This document shows, piece by piece, positions 3,674 through 18,653 of a stretch of DNA of 64,000 nucleotides. The notes beneath the pieces are model-generated. The model saw only the letters and a list, made by a program, of their open reading frames with translations. It was not told where the DNA came from and searched no databases. Numbering within the stretch: position 1 is the stretch's first letter; each line of letters begins with the position of its first letter. The translations under genes were made by a program, and so were the position numbers. The stretch comes from Escherichia coli (GTDB lineage: Bacteria; Pseudomonadota; Gammaproteobacteria; Enterobacterales; Enterobacteriaceae). The stretch lies in NCBI RefSeq assembly GCF_002854065.1, contig NZ_CP024147.1; one strand, given 5' to 3'.

Positions 3674-4035
3674 CGTTGTGATCGCAGTGATGTCTTGGTC
3701 TGATTTCTCAATGTAGTCATGAATCTGAGTCGACCCAGGGTCCTCTAACTATCTTTTCCTTGTCCCGTTAGGTACAAGCACATACTGTTAAAGATTAATA
3801 TGGCGGGGTATGGACGTCGGAGCTATGCCTACCTTTTAGATCGTTTGCTTCTGACTCGAAGCTTACAAGCTAGCTGATCTGAAGGTCCACTGTGAGCGAG
3901 GAGCGGACACCACGACTCACCAATAACTTGCTGCCCGCTTACGACCCAAAACCACCTATTGTATGTTAATTAATCTAGCAAACAAATGTTTAGCTTTTTA
4001 TCCGGCGAATGAAGCAAGAGAAATTGAACCCATTG

Positions 4036-4512
4036 CTAAGTATTACTGGGATTATTAAAAGGGATAATACTGGCCAATCCGTCATCTACATCAAGACCAT
4101 AGGCAACTGCTATTTCTGCCACAGAGGTACCACACTTTTTTCGCAGTTTAAAAAGCGCTCGCTCAAGCATAGATACTTGCACAGGATGATCAAATCGGAT
4201 GAACTGAGGGGAGCCAACACTGTCACCGAATTCTTGGCATGCCTTTCTCATTTTCCTTAATTGATTTGCTAAATATGAATCGCTCGGTAAACCTTGTAGG
4301 ATTTTAGTCAATTCAGATCTAATGCTGATAACACTCTGAATGCAATGACTAGTATCCTCCATATCGACAGGATTGAAAAGAACTCGCTTGTCCTCAAGAA
4401 AAATGACGATCTTCTTCGCTTCGTCAGCTTCTATTATTGGAGCATTCCACTGAATCCCGAATATAGGGCAGCTAAGGCCTGTAATATTTTTATAGATTCG
4501 TTCAAATTTCAA
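4036..4512 (-). CDS. Hypothetical protein (158 aa), apparent TTG start with strong Shine-Dalgarno
   Basis: AAGGAG box about 6 nt upstream of TTG at 4512..4510; same strand as and downstream of gajA/gajB; no recognisable motif. Confidence 0.5.
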   Translation of the reverse strand: MKFERIYKNITGLSCPIFGIQWNAPIIEADEAKKIVIFLEDKRVLFNPVDMEDTSHCIQSVISIRSELTKILQGLPSDSYLANQLRKMRKACQEFGDSVGSPQFIRFDHPVQVSMLERALFKLRKKCGTSVAEIAVAYGLDVDDGLASIIPFNNPSNT

Positions 4513-4689
4513 AACTCACTCCTTTGATGGACACATAACGCCTATACAGTCATGATGAGAAACGGACTCGGTTCGAGTAATCTGTTAGATAGCATCACTC
4601 GTAACTACTGTAAAAATAGTTGCTATCATGCTTATTGTCACTATAAATATTACTTAATGTCAGTCAGTTAAGAACGATTATTATCCCCC

Positions 4690-4725
4690 ACAATATAAAA
4701 TGTGTGTGGGGGCTATTTTTTCCAA
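4690..4725 (+). terminator. Putative rho-independent terminator (plus-strand orientation)
   Basis: Stem CCCCCACA/TGTGGGGG with about 10-nt loop followed by CTATTTTTT; lies between the 70-aa and 158-aa minus-strand ORFs. Confidence 0.45.
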
Positions 4726-4738
4726 GAGGTAGGCTTCA

Positions 4739-4951
4739 TCAAAGATAAACTACATGAGAAGAACGCCTTAACTTGCTCAAATGGATTGTGTTACAACAGT
4801 CTTGGTAACGTTTGCTATTGGCACATAGCGGGTCTTCAACCCAGTTAGCTCGCCCATTCTGTGCAAGTAGTGGACAATGAATGAAAAGATATTGGGTCGG
4901 ATTAACCTTGCGAAGGCCATCTAAGTCTGTGACGAACATTTCTTCAAGCAT
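4739..4951 (-). CDS. Small Cys-containing hypothetical protein (70 aa)
   Basis: ATG preceded by GAGGG about 7 nt upstream; four Cys residues; directly downstream of gajB; could be non-coding. Confidence 0.3.
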   Translation of the reverse strand: MLEEMFVTDLDGLRKVNPTQYLFIHCPLLAQNGRANWVEDPLCANSKRYQDCCNTIHLSKLRRSSHVVYL

Positions 4952-5085
4952 CTGAGGCCCTCAGCTCGCACCTAGAATTTTAATTTTGATGCATTTTGCC
5001 TTAGCTTGAGCATTGGAATGTGGCCTGATAACCGGTGTTTTCTTTTACTGGCCGTCCACAGACTCGATGACGCATTTATTCCCGA

Positions 5086-6903
5086 CTACCTTAAACCTGC
5101 CCCTCTCATTCGCTCCTCCAGTTCATCCAGAAATGGGGAACGCCCTAGACGCATAGGGCCGTAGCGACCATCAACAAAACCGGAATACAGCATATGCACC
5201 TCGTCCCGTGCGCGGGTCAGCCCCACATAGAAAAGACGTCGGCTTTCACGCAGCTTCTCTGGCGTCTCATTACGCCACGGCAAATTCCCCAGATCTAAGC
5301 CGACCATGATAACCACGTCATATTCGCAACCTTTGGCTGAGTGAAGTGTCAGCAAATTGAGGTGCTCAGGTGAACCGTCACGACCACCTAGGCTCGTGAT
5401 ATCCAACATCGCTAACGCACCGCCTTCGGCAAGTGCTGCAGTCATGCGATCTAGTTGCTCAGCCTGATCAGAAAGCGTTGGTTCAGTTGCCAGCAGGGAA
5501 TCAACGAGACCGTTGCGCAACGACGCGACAAAATCGGATGCAGAATGTTGGTCGGCACGAAGTGCCCAAAGTAGCCTGGTTAACTCCTGCCCCTTACTCC
5601 GGGCGCATGCATCATCCAGCCTTGCCCGATGAAATGCCAGATAACGGTCTATAAGTCCGCGCAGTTGAGGGCGCCCGATACGCCAACCGCCAGCACACCA
5701 TGCTGCGCAATCCTCCACCCAGCTCGTCAAGGCAACTTTGCGATAAGGTGCTGCGGTATCCACACGAATGTAATCAAAACCGCTAGCTGTCACCGCATCG
5801 GCCACAACATCGCCGGCACGGTAGTCCTTGTACAGAATGGCGATATCACCCAGTGTTCGGCCCGGCTTAGCAGCCAACGCAGCAGGAATAATCTGCTCGA
5901 CAGCATAGACAGCCTGATCCCCCAAGCCATCCGGACACAGCTGGAACGCAATGGTTGTCTGGCGGTTTGGGTCGTTTGCGCGATAACCACGAACCTCACC
6001 CAACACCATCTCCGATGCATTCACGATGTCCGCTCCTGATCTATAGTTCAACTGGAGCCGGACTGTTTCAACGTCTCTCCTGCCTGCCAGTTCTAGTAGT
6101 AACGCACCATCGGCACCAGTGAAACCGTAAATAGATTGGTCTGCATCACCCACTGCAAATAAGCGTACGCCTCCCTCGAAAGCCAGACGTTTGACCATAC
6201 GATGGAGTGCCACGCCCAAATCTTGATATTCATCTACCGCAAGGATCGGAAATTTCGCCTGTACTAGGGGCAGAACCCAATCATGCTCAATTATCAGACG
6301 CTGACCAAATATCACCATATCGTCGTAGTCTATCAGCCCTTGCTGCCGCAATGCAGCTTCGTAGGCCTCGGCCCATGCAGCGAGTTCCTCCTCTGTACGC
6401 CAGGCAACGCTGTTGCGATTCAACACCGAACGGCGATGCCGTCCGAGATCAATAGCCTTATAGGGATGGTTTGCGCCAAAGAGACGGTCACCAGATTGTC
6501 GAAGTAACCGTTCGCTCTCGCGCTGAGACGCTACTGACAGCGGAAATGGGATTGGCAGATCGGCCAGTCGCCCATAGGGCATCAACAGATGGCGCAAGCA
6601 GAACCCATGAACGGTTCCAATAAAGAGATTCGGTGCCTCTCTAAGCCCCAGCGCTTCGAGACGACGGGTTAGCTCGCGTGCGCATTCTTGGCTATATGTG
6701 ATACATGCCGCACCACGTGGAGCTTGAACATCCTCAGCTAGGATTCGTGCCAGCTTCAGCACAAGCGTCTTTGTCTTACCACTCCCCGGGCCCGCGAGCA
6801 CCACGCAGTGTCCCTGGGAGTGATACGCGGATAACTGGCCCGGATTCCCGGCCAGCTCGGCAGCCTGAGCTAAGTAGGCTGCACTGACACTACGTGACGG
6901 CAT
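5086..6903 (-). CDS. gajB: Gabija GajB-like UvrD/PcrA-family helicase
   Basis: Walker A VLAGPGSGKTKT, DEYQD box (LAVDEYQDLG) and further UvrD-like motifs; proposed start MPSRSV overlaps gajA stop by about 14 bp; longest ORF extends to 7005, so start is uncertain. Confidence 0.75.
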   Translation of the reverse strand: MPSRSVSAAYLAQAAELAGNPGQLSAYHSQGHCVVLAGPGSGKTKTLVLKLARILAEDVQAPRGAACITYSQECARELTRRLEALGLREAPNLFIGTVHGFCLRHLLMPYGRLADLPIPFPLSVASQRESERLLRQSGDRLFGANHPYKAIDLGRHRRSVLNRNSVAWRTEEELAAWAEAYEAALRQQGLIDYDDMVIFGQRLIIEHDWVLPLVQAKFPILAVDEYQDLGVALHRMVKRLAFEGGVRLFAVGDADQSIYGFTGADGALLLELAGRRDVETVRLQLNYRSGADIVNASEMVLGEVRGYRANDPNRQTTIAFQLCPDGLGDQAVYAVEQIIPAALAAKPGRTLGDIAILYKDYRAGDVVADAVTASGFDYIRVDTAAPYRKVALTSWVEDCAAWCAGGWRIGRPQLRGLIDRYLAFHRARLDDACARSKGQELTRLLWALRADQHSASDFVASLRNGLVDSLLATEPTLSDQAEQLDRMTAALAEGGALAMLDITSLGGRDGSPEHLNLLTLHSAKGCEYDVVIMVGLDLGNLPWRNETPEKLRESRRLFYVGLTRARDEVHMLYSGFVDGRYGPMRLGRSPFLDELEERMRGAGLR

Positions 6904-15043: not shown

Positions 15044-16051
15044 ATGGGCAACAGAATGTGGATGATTCGCGGTGACGGCGGCAAGCTCTATGACGATTTT
15101 CGCGATAAGCAAATTGTAGGCATCGGTTGGTCTCAGCTGGCTCCATTAGTCAAACCCGGCCTGTCCCGAGCCCAGTTACTCGCCTTATACCAGGAGGCAG
15201 ATCCCTTAACAAAGCTGGGAACAGCCCGTTCTGGTGCATCGCAGGTCTGGCGTTTTGTGAATGAGATCCAAAAGGGTGATTGGGTTATTACCTATTCGCC
15301 AGCCAACCGTACTTATTTGCTAGGCAAAGTCACATCCGACTTCCAATATCATCCTGAATGGGTGGAAGAGGGGATGGGGATCGCTCGGCAGGTTAAATGG
15401 AATACTCAAGAAATCGACCGCGATAGACTGTCTGTTGCTACCAAAAACACATTGGGTTCTACGCTGACGGTTTTTCAGCTTCCAGAATATGCGCTAGAAG
15501 AGCTTTTGCAGGATAAGAAACCCACTATAGATGTAATTACTCAGAATCCAGTTGCAATGGATGAAGATGAGGTCGTTTCTGATCCGCTTCGCGATATGGA
15601 AATGCTGGCGTTTGAGGGTATCAAAGATCGTATTAACTCTCTTGATTGGGACGAGATGCAAAATCTTGTTGCCGGAGTTTTACGCAGTATGGGCTATAAA
15701 ACGCAGGTTTCACCTGCGGGAGCCGATCGGGGTAAAGACATCATTGCTTCACCTGATGGGTTCGGTTTTGAAAATCCGCGTATTATCGTTGAGGTAAAGC
15801 ACCGCAGGGAACAGATGGGAAGCCAACAGATACGCAGCTTTATCGGCGGTCGCCATAAAGACGATCGCGGGCTTTATGTCAGTACAGGGGGTTTTACGAA
15901 AGATGCTCGATATGAAGCCGACCGTTCGACGATACCACTGACGCTCTGGACACTTGATGATCTCGTCCGTGCGCTTATTGAGAACTACGAACAAGTTGAT
16001 ATCGAGACTAAACTTTTGGTGCCTCTGAAGAAAACTTTCCTGCCTGCCTGA
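15044..16051 (+). CDS. Mrr-cat (PD-(D/E)xK) restriction-endonuclease-like protein with an uncharacterised N-terminal domain
   Basis: C-terminal half matches the Mrr catalytic core pattern (GADRGKDIIA...IIVEVKHRRE...QQIRSFIGG...GLYVSTGGFTKDA); N-terminal ~160 aa does not look like the K-12 Mrr N-terminal domain. Confidence 0.65.
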   Translation: MGNRMWMIRGDGGKLYDDFRDKQIVGIGWSQLAPLVKPGLSRAQLLALYQEADPLTKLGTARSGASQVWRFVNEIQKGDWVITYSPANRTYLLGKVTSDFQYHPEWVEEGMGIARQVKWNTQEIDRDRLSVATKNTLGSTLTVFQLPEYALEELLQDKKPTIDVITQNPVAMDEDEVVSDPLRDMEMLAFEGIKDRINSLDWDEMQNLVAGVLRSMGYKTQVSPAGADRGKDIIASPDGFGFENPRIIVEVKHRREQMGSQQIRSFIGGRHKDDRGLYVSTGGFTKDARYEADRSTIPLTLWTLDDLVRALIENYEQVDIETKLLVPLKKTFLPA

Positions 16052-16211: not shown

Positions 16212-16248
16212 TTCGAGTCCGGCCTTCGCACCTTCGCACCTTCGCACC
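16212..16248 (+). repeat. Degenerate tRNA 3' end repeat (leuX-like), probable island attR
   Basis: TTCGAGTCCGGCCTTCGCACC resembles the T-arm/acceptor 3' end of tRNA-Leu (leuX); TTCGCACC is triplicated and ends in CCA; no full tRNA is present. Confidence 0.55.
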
Positions 16249-16450
16249 ATCGGAACATCAATAGACATCAACGGACGTTTTTTTATGACTGAAATCCGCG
16301 CCACACAAGGCTTTTCGCTATTTTTCGCTCAACCTAAGTCAACCTACATCAACTTACTGATGTGGATACAGCTACAGCTGCGGCTATACCCCGATTCGAT
16401 AATGTTTGTACCCACACAAAACCCTTGAAAGGCTACAAGGCTGAAATTGT

Positions 16451-16669
16451 CTAAACCATAGAGATGATTTTTATGATCCAGTCTTTCTCTTGTTGAGATA
16501 GTTCCAGTTTGCTCACTCGTGTTAAGAAGGTATTGATCACCTGAACATCCGAATTGGTGAGCCTATTTAATAGAGCGGGTGGTATACCTTTACTAACAAT
16601 CGCTTTGCGGTGACTTTCGTAGTTTTTATTACTCATTGTTGATCCTAAAAAATCATTGTATGGCGGCAT
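16451..16669 (-). CDS. Small hypothetical protein (72 aa)
   Basis: ORF only; no recognisable motif. Confidence 0.3.
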   Translation of the reverse strand: MPPYNDFLGSTMSNKNYESHRKAIVSKGIPPALLNRLTNSDVQVINTFLTRVSKLELSQQEKDWIIKIISMV

Positions 16670-17014
16670 TGATCGTTTCCAGCAACCTTTACTTACTCAC
16701 TTCGAACTGCATCCTCGTAGACTGTTCCACTACAATAATCGAAAAGGCGCGGATGTCCATTCAGGTATCCCGCTAATACGTATAGCAATAACAATGGCTT
16801 ATGCGGCGCGCGCTGTTCACCCTTGTGCCAGATTTTTATATTGGCAATTGCCTGCTGTAGCGATTTACTGGAAGCTATTGATATCCCTGGCAGTGAAATA
16901 ATTGCGATCATGCTCGCAAATTTTCTGCTGTTCAAGCCTGCAAGTGAAGATATATTACCTTGATCTCATTTGTTTTTTTGCTGCCTGTTCTGAGAACGTA
17001 TAAGGACATTCTCC

Positions 17015-17665
17015 ATGAATAAACTCCCTGATCATCTTCCGCGGCGGTATATCATCGAAGCTATCCATTTATGGGATGCGGGAGAAACTCATCAGTTCCA
17101 GCCTGCGCGGTTGTATGAGATTGAATATCATGGCCGACGTTACCCCTCGAAGGCGATTGCTGGCATCGCAGCGACATTGATGACGGGGACGCAATTTACC
17201 CCTGCGGATTTCACCGGCGGAATAAAATCTAAATGTGTCAAGCTACTCATAGAGCAGGGATTTCATATTCATCTGGATAAAGCCGCTGCGGCTCCCATAG
17301 CCGACGTTCTGTTCCCGGATGAGTTGCCGTCGCAGGAGACATACCTTGAAGGTGCGGCGATAAAGGTGACAGTAAACCGCTATGAACGCGATAAAAAGGC
17401 CCGAGATAAAGCGGTCGAACATCATGGATGCCAGTGCAACGTATGCGGTGTTGATCTGGTGAAGATCTATGGTGATATCGCTGAAGGCTTTATCCATGTG
17501 CATCACCTGGTGCCGCTGTCAGCCATTAAAGAGGATTACCAGCTGGATCCAGTTAATGATTTGCTGCCTGTGTACCCTAATTGCCATGCGATGTTGCACC
17601 GACGCAAACCACCGTTTACGCCGGAGCAGTTAAAAGCGCTGATGGATGCGAATAAATCAAATTAA
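17015..17665 (+). CDS. HNH endonuclease-domain protein (McrA-like, putative type IV restriction nuclease)
   Basis: C-terminal HNH signature HHLVPLS...DLLPVYPNCHAMLH with upstream CQCNVCG zinc-binding pair; N-terminal ~110 aa uncharacterised. Confidence 0.65.
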   Translation: MNKLPDHLPRRYIIEAIHLWDAGETHQFQPARLYEIEYHGRRYPSKAIAGIAATLMTGTQFTPADFTGGIKSKCVKLLIEQGFHIHLDKAAAAPIADVLFPDELPSQETYLEGAAIKVTVNRYERDKKARDKAVEHHGCQCNVCGVDLVKIYGDIAEGFIHVHHLVPLSAIKEDYQLDPVNDLLPVYPNCHAMLHRRKPPFTPEQLKALMDANKSN

Positions 17666-17672
17666 TGAACGC

Positions 17673-18653
17673 TCACCTTTCGCGCCAAAACTGCAAAATT
17701 GCTTCTACAAACTTGTCAGAAATAATCCCCCGACGGGCTGCCGTGCTGAAATGACTGCTTCGCAGTGCCGTCGTCCAGTTCTCCGGTGACCGGTACGCTG
17801 AACCGTAATATCCCGTGCTTAAATCGTCCGGGTCTTCATCAGGCGCGTTCGTCAGTCCTCTTTCACCTTGTTGCTGGAAGTCGACGAAAATAATATTGGC
17901 TAAAACATTATTTTGATAATTGCCATAAATAACTTCATACGCATGAGGGAAATTTTCTTTCCAGTACCAGGTGGTATCGCCGCAAAACCACGGTGCGTCA
18001 GTAATATTATTAAGCTGAGAATGGTATTGTTTTAGATCCCTACGAAAGGCTTCAACCATATGATTAAAGTGTTGAGGGTGTGACGCGTAGTCACTGGTCA
18101 TTAAGTCAAATTCGCCTTGCATCCAGCATACGCCGAGGAATTTGTTATGCGGATTTTTTGCCAGTGCGGCTCGCGTTCTGCTGACTAAATCCTGGTATAG
18201 CGGAGTATCCGTTCCCCAACGACAAGCATCATGGCTGGCTCCGTGCCGTTCTGAATATGTTCCTTCGCTGCCCGCGGTAAAAGCCGATCCGCCACGGCAA
18301 CACGGAACGATGAGAACCCCTGCATTATCAGGAATAAAGGGCAGTAATTTCCGTGCTATATGCAGTGCCTGGCCAACGGTGCCGTACTGTGTTTGATGAT
18401 TCGTTGCCAGAGGATGGTGATAACCCTGCATATCCTGAACATCGTGTGGGCAGTGAGTCAGTGGAATAATGTCGTTAAAGTGACATGACGGGCCTCCGGG
18501 ATGCGTATGCGCAAATCTCGCTAATTGTTTAATTCTGGGATGAGGCGCATCTTCCCTGTCCGGTAATGGCAGTCCTTCGCCATACGCCATGGCATTAGAC
18601 TGACCAGCAACGGTAAGAATATAGTAATAATCAGGCGATATTATTGCGTTCAT
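17673..18653 (-). CDS. nanS: NanS, 9-O-acetyl-N-acetylneuraminate esterase
   Basis: Matches K-12 NanS (YjhS) from MNAIISPDYYY; conserved position in the nanCMS operon. Confidence 0.85.
   Translation of the reverse strand: MNAIISPDYYYILTVAGQSNAMAYGEGLPLPDREDAPHPRIKQLARFAHTHPGGPSCHFNDIIPLTHCPHDVQDMQGYHHPLATNHQTQYGTVGQALHIARKLLPFIPDNAGVLIVPCCRGGSAFTAGSEGTYSERHGASHDACRWGTDTPLYQDLVSRTRAALAKNPHNKFLGVCWMQGEFDLMTSDYASHPQHFNHMVEAFRRDLKQYHSQLNNITDAPWFCGDTTWYWKENFPHAYEVIYGNYQNNVLANIIFVDFQQQGERGLTNAPDEDPDDLSTGYYGSAYRSPENWTTALRSSHFSTAARRGIISDKFVEAILQFWRER

What the first reader, a model, noticed from the sequence alone, without database searches (positions are those of the whole stretch)
17015..17665. 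HNH endonuclease with an uncharacterised N-terminal domain between the island boundary and nanS
The 216-aa protein has a clear HNH motif (HHLVPLS...NCHAMLH) with a CQCNVCG zinc knuckle, and an unassigned N-terminal ~110 aa. It lies outside the attR-like repeat and next to the nan operon, a locus I do not recall being occupied by such a gene in K-12. It may be a McrA-like type IV restriction enzyme or a homing-type nuclease.
Basis: partly seen in the sequence, partly recalled or inferred. Interest (0 to 1): 0.5.

Follow-up and report, generated by a model that had tools for sequence, protein, structure and literature searches.

The report
ScoMcrA-head/HNH restriction-type nuclease, decaying copy
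The gene is real and encodes a small two-domain DNA-cutting enzyme, probably one of the enzymes bacteria use to destroy chemically marked foreign DNA, but this copy has lost a conserved zinc-binding residue and its neighbouring partner gene, so it is an ordinary, probably fading, defence gene.

Summary
The 216-aa ORF at 17015-17665 (+) is real; RefSeq calls it 'HNH endonuclease' (WP_001037966.1). Its N-terminal domain is not unassigned. It is Pfam ScoMcrA_N (PF26345), the 'head' domain of the Streptomyces type IV enzyme ScoMcrA, whose function is unknown. A disordered linker joins it to a McrA-type HNH nuclease.

The head domain and this HNH module each recombine with typical type IV restriction parts (EVE, SRA, DUF3427, McrB-like AAA_5, Mrr_N, DpnI-type winged helix). 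No methyltransferase lies beside the gene. A modification-dependent restriction role is therefore the best reading. A homing nuclease is unlikely.

The gene lies about 765 bp outside a leuX 3'-end copy, directly against nanS, and K-12 lacks it. In other E. coli, Citrobacter and Klebsiella aerogenes it pairs divergently with an intact, EcoWI-like phosphorothioate-dependent SBD-HNH enzyme. Here that partner is cut to about 54 codons and has no start codon.

The window allele also carries C187Y in the structural zinc site, where 105 of 108 homologues have Cys. About 1,900 E. coli genomes keep only a 3' stub of the gene, in most cases from a 583-bp deletion between 12-bp repeats.

Verdict: new member of a known kind, probably impaired here; modest interest.

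The parts
17015..17665 (+). ScoMcrA_N-HNH gene (216 aa; identical to RefSeq WP_001037966.1 'HNH endonuclease')
   Evidence: ORF. RefSeq annotation. Homologue family carries PF26345 plus PF01844. dN/dS is 0.09-0.36.
17002..17006 (+). Shine-Dalgarno-like AAGGA, 8 nt upstream of the ATG
   Evidence: Read directly from the sequence.
17027..17284 (+). ScoMcrA_N 'head' domain (about aa 5-90; predicted helix-strand-strand-helix-helix-strand)
17285..17341 (+). Linker (about aa 91-109), part of a low-confidence stretch of the model that extends to about aa 121
   Evidence: AlphaFold2 pLDDT is below 50 at aa 93-103 and 115-121. Length and sequence vary in the family alignment.
17342..17614 (+). McrA-type HNH (beta-beta-alpha-Me) module, about aa 110-200, including the VNRYERD pre-helix
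   Evidence: Pfam HNH at aa 141-197. Aligns to EcoKMcrA 6ghc and to the ScoMcrA HNH domain. The same module is fused to other N-terminal domains in 62 proteins.
17435..17446 (+). First CxxC of the structural zinc site (C141, C144)
   Evidence: Invariant in alignments A1 and A3. Aligns to EcoKMcrA C207/C210 by my residue count on the alignment; role of the motif from PMC6182155.
17501..17506 (+). H163-H164 (metal ligand and nucleophile-activating His)
   Evidence: Invariant. Aligns to EcoKMcrA H228/H229.
17573..17575 (+). Codon 187, TAC (Tyr), where the family has TGC (Cys), the first Cys of the second CxxC
   Evidence: 105 of 108 homologues have Cys. All 6 other E. coli loci sampled (5 distinct alleles) have Cys. 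Aligns to EcoKMcrA C248.
17582..17599 (+). C190, H191 and H195 (zinc ligand plus two active-site metal ligands)
   Evidence: Invariant. Aligns to EcoKMcrA C251, H252 and H256.
16714..16878 (-). Remnant of the divergently transcribed SBD-HNH (phosphorothioated-DNA-binding restriction endonuclease): codons 1 to about 54 only, with the start codon changed from ATG to ATA
   Evidence: NCBIfam NF045808, profile positions 2-45, E 1.7e-16. tblastn and hmmsearch hits. Annotated as a pseudogene in RefSeq. Start-codon change shown.
16977..16988 (+). Upstream copy of the 12-bp direct repeat TTTGCTGCCTGT
   Evidence: Only two copies in the window, against 0.01 expected. This is the deletion junction in the stub-carrying genomes.
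17560..17571 (+). Intragenic copy of the 12-bp direct repeat; recombination with the upstream copy removes 583 bp (the start codon and codons 1-182)
   Evidence: A 3' stub beginning here is common among E. coli genomes.
16212..16250 (+). Copy of the leuX tRNA 3' end (attR-like island boundary), with CACCTTCG triplicated
   Evidence: Alignment to K-12 leuX. Many genomes begin to match the window at this point.
17673..18653 (-). nanS (sialate O-acetylesterase), convergent neighbour; conserved chromosome resumes here
   Evidence: RefSeq annotation in L002. The K-12 match starts at about 17670.

Best explanation
The gene encodes a two-domain nuclease. An N-terminal ScoMcrA-head-like domain (ScoMcrA_N) is tethered by a flexible linker to a McrA-type HNH domain.

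In its intact form it is most likely a stand-alone, modification-dependent (type IV-like) restriction endonuclease. On this reading the head domain docks the enzyme on DNA carrying a mark that E. coli does not make itself. The HNH domain, probably acting as a dimer like EcoKMcrA and ScoMcrA, then cuts nearby.

Together with the divergently transcribed EcoWI-like SBD-HNH (phosphorothioate-dependent) gene, it forms a two-gene cassette. The cassette sits between the right end of the leuX-anchored defence island and nanS.

In this window the cassette is decaying. SBD-HNH is reduced to about 54 codons and has no start codon. The head-HNH allele carries C187Y in the structural zinc site, so this copy is probably weakened or inactive.

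Shown: the domain identities, the conserved residues, the pairing, the population pattern and the substitution. Inferred: that the head domain is the DNA or modification reader, dependence on modification, dimeric cleavage, and loss of activity from C187Y.

For: Catalytic residues: H163, H164, H191 and H195 are invariant and align to EcoKMcrA H228, H229, H252 and H256.

Module shuffling typical of type IV enzymes: this HNH module is also fused to EVE, DpnI_C winged helix, DUF3427, AlbA_2 and Mrr_N. The head domain is also fused to HNH, HNH_2, EVE, AAA_5 (McrB-like), NOV_C, nSTAND3, SAD_SRA, MrcB_N and AspBHI_N.

No adjacent methyltransferase in the window.

Defence context: the leuX hotspot #37 (PMC12707154); type I R-M, Mrr_N-HNH or Zorya II beside homologues.

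Pairing with an intact SBD-HNH: E. coli, Citrobacter and K. aerogenes.

Selection: dN/dS is 0.09-0.36.

Decay in this copy: C187Y is derived. The SBD remnant is truncated and has lost its start codon. Many genomes carry the 583-bp deletion.
Against: No biochemical or genetic data on any ScoMcrA_N-HNH protein were found. The ScoMcrA paper says the head domain has unknown function.

PADLOC and NCBIfam give only sub-threshold hits.

The ORF and its ribosome-binding site are intact, and the Y187 allele is present in about 652 genomes. C187Y therefore need not abolish function. Some HNH enzymes work without a Cys4 zinc site (my own knowledge, not tested here).
Confidence: 0.55

Rival explanations
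1. Split ScoMcrA. On this reading head-HNH is not an independent enzyme. It is an obligate partner, for example a heterodimer through the HNH domains, of the neighbouring SBD-HNH. Together they would reproduce the head+SBD+HNH content of ScoMcrA and restrict phosphorothioated DNA. With SBD-HNH destroyed, the gene in this window would be an orphan subunit.
For: Divergent adjacency (136-180 bp) recurs in E. coli, three Citrobacter species and K. aerogenes. On an E. coli integrative element the two genes lie within 4 kb. ScoMcrA carries both domains in one chain, and both its head and its HNH align to this family.
Against: Most lineages with head-HNH have no SBD gene within 6 kb: Raoultella, K. 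pneumoniae, Atlantibacter, Pseudescherichia, Enterobacter, Pantoea and distant phyla.

EcoWI-type SBD-HNH works alone in vitro and in vivo as a homodimer (PMC7461809).

E. coli lineages commonly keep only one of the two genes. Roughly 1,000 or more genomes have SBD-HNH only and roughly 800-900 have head-HNH only, against 326 with both.

The two proteins use different HNH families, HNH_2 and HNH.
Confidence: 0.12
2. The head domain is not a reader of DNA modification. The protein would be a nuclease effector regulated in another way, for example by a partner protein or a signal, as with the Cap5 HNH effectors. The head would act only as a generic DNA-binding or oligomerisation module.
For: The head domain is also fused to STAND and AAA+ NTPases, a ZorC-like protein and a phosphoesterase. 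In many proteins it accompanies a bona fide reader such as EVE, SRA or SBD rather than replacing it. In ScoMcrA it is flexibly attached and was not needed to explain binding of phosphorothioated or 5mC DNA. There is a weak PADLOC hit to IetA.
Against: In the 210-aa proteins the head is the only domain besides the nuclease. In otherwise near-identical HNH-module proteins the same slot is filled by known readers: Mrr_N, the DpnI winged helix or EVE. No conserved partner gene was found, and the downstream small ORFs are unrelated to one another.
Confidence: 0.15
3. Selfish or homing-type HNH endonuclease.
For: Phage HNH families match the HNH core (phrog_8048, E 3e-7). Presence varies between strains.
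Against: The PHROG matches cover only aa 124-205, and no homing-type DNA-binding modules are present.

The gene occupies the same chromosomal site next to nanS in all E. coli and is not inside another gene, an intron or a prophage.

The presence/absence pattern is explained by deletions, not by insertion.

Its domain partners are restriction-type.
Confidence: 0.03
4. Fully inert relic. The ORF is open only because too little time has passed, and the protein is not made or has no activity or role.
For: C187Y hits a ligand conserved in 97% of homologues. The partner gene is destroyed. The gene has been deleted in about 1,900 genomes and is absent from others. Frameshifted and truncated variants exist (P0002, P0003, P0006, P0056). 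No sigma-70-like promoter was detected upstream by the simple scan.
Against: The reading frame and Shine-Dalgarno sequence are intact. The window allele differs from its nearest C187 allele by only 3 nonsynonymous against 8 synonymous changes. An identical allele is kept in about 650 genomes. The promoter scan is crude.
Confidence: 0.15

Closest known systems
ScoMcrA (Streptomyces coelicolor Sco4631; PDB 5ZMM), a type IV enzyme with head-SBD-SRA-HNH architecture
   Different: The window protein lacks the SBD and SRA reader domains that account for ScoMcrA's known specificities (216 aa against 562). Identity in the head is about 26-34%. The function of the shared head domain is unknown.
EcoKMcrA (E. 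coli K-12 McrA; PDB 6GHC)
   Same: Same HNH type. Two CxxC motifs surround a structural zinc, and the H228/H229/H252/H256 equivalents are conserved in the family. Both are single-chain, methyltransferase-less enzymes in Dam+ Dcm+ hosts.
   Different: The N-terminal NEco reader domain is absent, and only the HNH part aligns (6ghc aa 177-271). The window allele has Tyr at the position of C248.
EcoWI / SprMcrA-type SBD-HNH phosphorothioate-dependent endonucleases (NCBIfam NF045808)
   Same: This is the family of the truncated neighbour gene. Its intact orthologue is the divergent partner in other strains, including KO11FL, which I believe to be an E. coli W derivative (my knowledge). Both are small reader-plus-HNH single-chain enzymes.
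   Different: The finding's protein has no SBD (NF045808 score 17.4 against a cutoff of 180) and uses Pfam HNH, not HNH_2. Identity of the E. coli neighbour with EcoWI itself is inferred only from the strain name and mass: 33.3 kDa calculated against 33.4 kDa reported.
[quoted passage not shown]
   Same: Same design: a small reader, a linker and an HNH domain, about 210-380 aa, with no methyltransferase. The very HNH module of this protein is found fused to EVE, the DpnI-type winged helix, DUF3427 and Mrr_N in other bacteria.
   Different: It shows no significant similarity to PUA/EVE, SRA or canonical winged-helix readers.

Membership tests
ScoMcrA_N-HNH architecture (Pfam PF26345 + PF01844) | N-terminal domain homologous to the ScoMcrA head domain | tested here: met
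ScoMcrA_N-HNH architecture (Pfam PF26345 + PF01844) | C-terminal HNH with catalytic His residues and active-site metal ligands | tested here: met
   H163, H164, H191 and H195 are invariant and align to EcoKMcrA H228, H229, H252 and H256.
ScoMcrA_N-HNH architecture (Pfam PF26345 + PF01844) | Cys4 structural zinc site (two CxxC motifs) | tested here: not met
   C141, C144 and C190 are present, but residue 187 is Tyr. 105 of 108 homologues and all other E. coli alleles sampled have Cys.
Type IV (modification-dependent) restriction enzymes | Nuclease fused to, or associated with, a DNA-modification reader; shares modules with known type IV enzymes | tested here: inconclusive
   The architecture and the module partners (EVE, SRA, DUF3427, McrB-like AAA_5, MrcB_N, Mrr_N, DpnI_C) fit. 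That ScoMcrA_N reads a modification has not been shown.
Type IV (modification-dependent) restriction enzymes | No cognate methyltransferase | tested here: met
   The window neighbours are the SBD-HNH remnant and nanS. No methyltransferase is directly paired with the gene in the homologue loci. Where a type I R-M system is nearby it is a separate system.
Type IV (modification-dependent) restriction enzymes | Cleaves only modified DNA and restricts modified phage or plasmid | not testable with these tools
   This needs enzyme and plating assays. No report was found in the paper library.
EcoKMcrA family | NEco N-terminal 5mC/5hmC-binding domain | tested here: not met
   Only the HNH region of 6ghc aligns (chain aa 177-271). 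The N-terminal domain instead matches the ScoMcrA head.
SBD-HNH phosphorothioate-dependent endonucleases (NF045808; PF26340) | Sulfur-binding domain | tested here: not met
   NF045808 score is 17.4 bits against a cutoff of 180. PF26340 is not recorded for this family, whereas it is for the neighbour gene.
HNH homing endonucleases | Located in an intron, intein or phage genome, with homing-type DNA-binding modules | tested here: not met
   The gene has a fixed intergenic chromosomal site next to nanS. PHROG hits are restricted to the HNH core.

The most novel reading that the evidence does not exclude
ScoMcrA_N may be a reader of a DNA modification not yet identified. If so, the 210-aa head-HNH proteins are a distinct, uncharacterised class of stand-alone type IV restriction enzymes, with about 3,700 clusters (at 50% identity) carrying the domain.

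The enterobacterial head-HNH/SBD-HNH cassette would then be a two-specificity 'split ScoMcrA' guarding the edge of the leuX defence hotspot. Repeated loss of either half, including the same 583-bp microhomology deletion on two allelic backgrounds, would reflect conflict with modification systems that arrive at that hotspot.
Probability: 0.3. Interest if true: 0.55.

Novelty: new member of a known kind. Interest (0 to 1): 0.3.

Why it matters
The ScoMcrA head domain has had no known function since the 2018 structure paper, yet it is widespread in defence-type proteins. The head-HNH proteins are the minimal natural context in which that function could be read out, because the head is the only domain besides the nuclease.

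E. coli offers matched natural alleles (C187 and Y187) and strains with both genes, either gene, or neither. A direct test is therefore cheap.

For this window itself the result is mostly annotation. The gene is a decaying type IV-like cassette at a known defence hotspot, not a new system.

Tried and rejected
1. An inversion of one ancestral SBD-HNH gene. The minus-strand fragment matches NF045808 positions 2-45 and the plus-strand ORF weakly matches positions 106-185. I rejected this because strains exist with both genes intact and divergent, and the plus-strand ORF is a separate family.

2. A conserved small partner ORF downstream. A 70-aa ORF was seen in both Pantoea and Sulfurimonadaceae. 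The sequences are unrelated.

4. Allele counting with a 41-mer centred on the SNP. This was confounded because the 3' stubs also contain the site. I redid it with a 41-mer shifted upstream. Diverged alleles are still undercounted.

5. Confirming the attR-like repeat by searching E. coli genomes. No tRNA features lay under the matches. I confirmed it instead by direct alignment to K-12 leuX.

6. Looking for the EcoWI accession or sequence in the papers and their supplements. It is not given.

7. The promoter and terminator scan around the gene was uninformative.

8. A regex-based classification of head-domain architectures was uninformative beyond showing that the domain is mostly N-terminal.

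Full report
**Observation**

The ORF is present exactly as described: 17015-17665 on the plus strand, 216 aa, ATG start. An AAGGA at 17002-17006 lies 8 nt upstream. The quoted motifs are there: CQCNVCG at aa 139-145, HHLVPLS at 163-169 and NCHAMLH at 189-195.

In RefSeq E. coli genomes the identical protein is WP_001037966.1, annotated only as 'HNH endonuclease'.

It is a real gene. About 1,054 homologues were found, from 99% down to about 42% identity, mostly 205-230 aa. Pairwise dN/dS among intact E. coli alleles is 0.09-0.36.

**Position**

Window 16212-16250 is a copy of the 3' end of tRNA-Leu leuX (TTCGAGTCCGGCCTTCG...GCACCA) with CACCTTCG triplicated. Many genomes begin to match the window at exactly this point.

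The gene therefore lies about 765 bp outside the island's attR-like repeat. Its stop codon is 7 bp from the stop of the convergent nanS gene.

K-12 matches only from about 17670 onward, so it lacks the gene.

**What the protein is**

The Pfam copy used by profile_search sees only a weak HNH match (aa 141-197, E 0.006). The precomputed annotations for the homologues give PF26345 plus PF01844. The tool names PF26345 as ScoMcrA_N.

Independent checks agree:
- A profile of 35 family members hits ScoMcrA (PDB 5ZMM) at E 4.5e-12. The N-terminal domain aligns to ScoMcrA aa 4-95 (i-E 4e-7), and the C-terminal region aligns to the ScoMcrA HNH and to EcoKMcrA (6GHC).
- An AlphaFold2 model (mean pLDDT 82.7) shows two confident domains. 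Between them is a stretch with pLDDT below 50 at aa 93-103 and 115-121.
- Foldseek against the PDB puts the ScoMcrA head first (rmsd 2.1 A over 85 columns). After it come only HNH domains such as Cap5 and TagI.

The ScoMcrA structure paper describes this head domain as small, flexibly attached and of unknown function (PMC6224610). The protein is in effect ScoMcrA without its SBD and SRA reader domains.

**Catalytic and metal residues**

In the family alignments C141, C144, H163, H164, N189, C190, H191 and H195 are invariant, and C187 is nearly so.

I counted residues along the phmmer alignment to 6ghc_A, assuming the PDB chain carries 10 extra N-terminal residues. This maps C141/C144 to EcoKMcrA C207/C210, H163/H164 to H228/H229, and residue 187/C190 to C248/C251. 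H191 and H195 map to H252 and H256.

The EcoKMcrA paper states that the two CxxC motifs coordinate the structural Zn2+. It also states that H228, H252 and H256 bind the active-site metal (PMC6182155).

The window allele has Tyr at 187 (TAC at 17573-17575). Among 108 homologues with the xPNCH motif, 105 have Cys. The only two with Tyr are the E. coli cluster of the window allele and its truncated form.

Six other E. coli loci, carrying five distinct alleles, all have Cys187. Relative to all of them the window allele has three derived changes: V111L, C187Y and E205Q.

The catalytic histidines are therefore intact, but one structural zinc ligand is lost.

**Why a type IV-like restriction role is the best reading**

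(a) The HNH module (about aa 100-216, including VNRYERD...PNCHAMLH) occurs at 47-60% identity in other phyla behind quite different N-terminal domains. Pfam recognises EVE, the DpnI-type winged helix (DpnI_C), DUF3427 and AlbA_2 among them. A Klebsiella aerogenes neighbour gene carries the same module behind Mrr_N. These are the known or suspected reader modules of modification-dependent endonucleases (PMC6765204, PMC11037411).

(b) The head domain is widespread, with 3,705 clusters (50% identity) at E<=1e-3. In 102 sampled proteins it is combined with the following:
- HNH (36) and HNH_2 (19)
- EVE (13)
- McrB-like AAA_5 (7) and NOV_C (7)
- nSTAND3 (6)
- DUF3427 (3), SAD_SRA (2) and MrcB_N (2)
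- AspBHI_N (1) and Mrr_N (1)

AFDB50 neighbours carry the matching descriptions, including 'ScoMcrA-like N-terminal head domain-containing protein'.

(c) No methyltransferase is adjacent, either here or directly paired with the gene in the homologue loci.

(d) The context is defensive. The leuX-anchored 'hotspot #37' is described as the most occupied E. coli defence island (PMC12707154). An Mrr-like PDC-S02 candidate lies just inside the island at 15044-16051. Homologues sit beside type I R-M genes, Mrr_N-HNH or Zorya II.

(e) The hosts are Dam+ Dcm+ enterobacteria. Any target mark would therefore have to be something other than G6mATC or C5mCWGG (inference).

No experimental work on this architecture was found.

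**The neighbour and the cassette**

On the minus strand, 16714-16878 is the first ~54 codons of a phosphorothioated-DNA-binding restriction endonuclease, the SBD-HNH family that includes EcoWI and SprMcrA (NF045808 positions 2-45, E 1.7e-16). In the window its start codon has also changed from ATG to ATA.

Other E. coli strains have the intact 290-aa gene divergently paired, 136 bp away, with an intact head-HNH gene: CH4796, GPEC464, GPEC60-33-648 and STEC379.

The same divergent pair occurs in three Citrobacter species and in K. aerogenes. In K. aerogenes it sits next to an Mrr_N-HNH and a type I R-M system.

A 57%-identical E. coli paralogue on an integrative element has an SBD-HNH 4 kb away.

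Most other lineages with head-HNH have no SBD gene nearby. EcoWI-type enzymes work alone (PMC7461809). I therefore read the pair as two independent type IV-like enzymes that travel together, not as an obligate heteromer. I keep the 'split ScoMcrA' idea as a rival.

KO11FL, which I believe derives from E. coli W (my own knowledge), carries the intact SBD-HNH here. Its calculated mass is 33.3 kDa, against 33.4 kDa reported for EcoWI. This suggests, but does not prove, that this locus encodes EcoWI.

**Population picture (5,426 complete E. coli genomes)**

- 3,150 genomes have some part of the gene, and 1,238 have at least 80% of it.
- 326 genomes have at least 80% of the intact pair.
- From an evenly spaced sample of the hits, roughly 1,000 genomes have an intact SBD-HNH with head-HNH reduced to a 3' stub. 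UTI89, E24377A and KO11FL are examples.
- By the same sample, roughly 800-900 are like the window, with intact head-HNH and truncated SBD-HNH.
- O157 and O145 strains keep only SBD-HNH. K-12-like genomes have neither gene.

The common stub arises from a 583-bp deletion between two copies of TTTGCTGCCTGT, at 16977-16988 and 17560-17571. These are the only two copies in the window, against 0.01 expected.

A 41-mer that requires upstream gene context finds the Y187 allele in 652 genomes and the otherwise identical C187 version in 96. The remaining full-length copies are diverged alleles, and every one sampled has Cys.

Frameshifted and truncated variants also exist.

**Rivals**

- Obligate partner of SBD-HNH: 0.12.
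- Head is not a reader, so the nuclease is regulated in another way: 0.15.
- Inert relic: 0.15.
- Homing nuclease: 0.03. This is disfavoured by the fixed intergenic site, a polymorphism driven by deletion, and PHROG hits limited to the HNH core.

**Verdict**

The gene is a member of a catalogued but experimentally uncharacterised architecture, ScoMcrA_N-HNH. It belongs to the known kind of modular type IV-like HNH restriction enzymes.

This copy is probably compromised by C187Y and has lost its partner gene. The general interest lies in the unknown function of the head domain, for which these minimal proteins and the natural E. coli alleles offer a simple test.

Noticed in passing
window 15044-16051 (+): A 335-aa protein just inside the leuX island's right end matches the PADLOC candidate defence family PDC-S02 over its full length (E 1.8e-81). 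It has an Mrr-like C-terminal nuclease region and is annotated 'restriction endonuclease' in RefSeq.
   Followed up: partly
window 16451-16669 (-): A 72-aa ORF lies between the attR-like repeat and the SBD-HNH remnant. It matches phage family phrog_25874 (unknown function) at E 6.5e-47. It is not annotated in the RefSeq loci I inspected.
   Followed up: no
window 16212-16250: The leuX 3'-end copy at the island boundary has the octamer CACCTTCG triplicated relative to the tRNA gene.
   Followed up: partly
window 16977-16988 and 17560-17571: Two copies of the 12-bp direct repeat TTTGCTGCCTGT flank the 583 bp that is missing in the very common 3'-stub form of the gene. The same junction is found on both Y187 (L102) and C187 (UTI89, L005) backgrounds.
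   Followed up: yes
window 16876-16878 (-): The start codon of the SBD-HNH remnant is ATA in the window, where intact alleles have ATG.
   Followed up: yes
E. coli genomes, query L088:492-2151 positions 606-853: About 1,700 genomes, several of K-12-like size, match only a 248-bp piece of the SBD-HNH gene at about 90% identity. The piece is annotated as a partial phosphorothioated-DNA-binding restriction endonuclease. I did not establish whether it sits at this locus or at a second, paralogous one.
   Followed up: no
L094-L096 (Klebsiella aerogenes) 4260-6636: Three small reader-HNH genes stand side by side next to a type I R-M system: Mrr_N-HNH, SBD-HNH and ScoMcrA_N-HNH. The Mrr_N-HNH carries nearly the same HNH module as the finding's protein.
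   Followed up: partly
L104 (E. coli KO11FL) 1-2373: In KO11FL the intact SBD-HNH (290 aa, 33.3 kDa) lies next to a McrB family gene, and head-HNH is reduced to the stub. This is probably the source locus of the characterised enzyme EcoWI, but no accession was available to confirm it.
   Followed up: partly
L004 / L086 (E. coli CH4796, GPEC464) downstream of the pair: In these strains nanS and part of nanM are replaced by a type II Zorya system (zorA2, zorB2, zorE) directly downstream of the intact pair. The variable defence region therefore extends past the cassette into the nan genes.
   Followed up: no
L098 / L099 (Sulfurimonadaceae MAG) 3985-5342: Upstream of a distant head-HNH homologue lies a 315-aa HNH_2 protein, co-oriented with a NUDIX gene. 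Its N-terminal region looks PUA/EVE-like by eye. This may be another modification-related pair.
   Followed up: no
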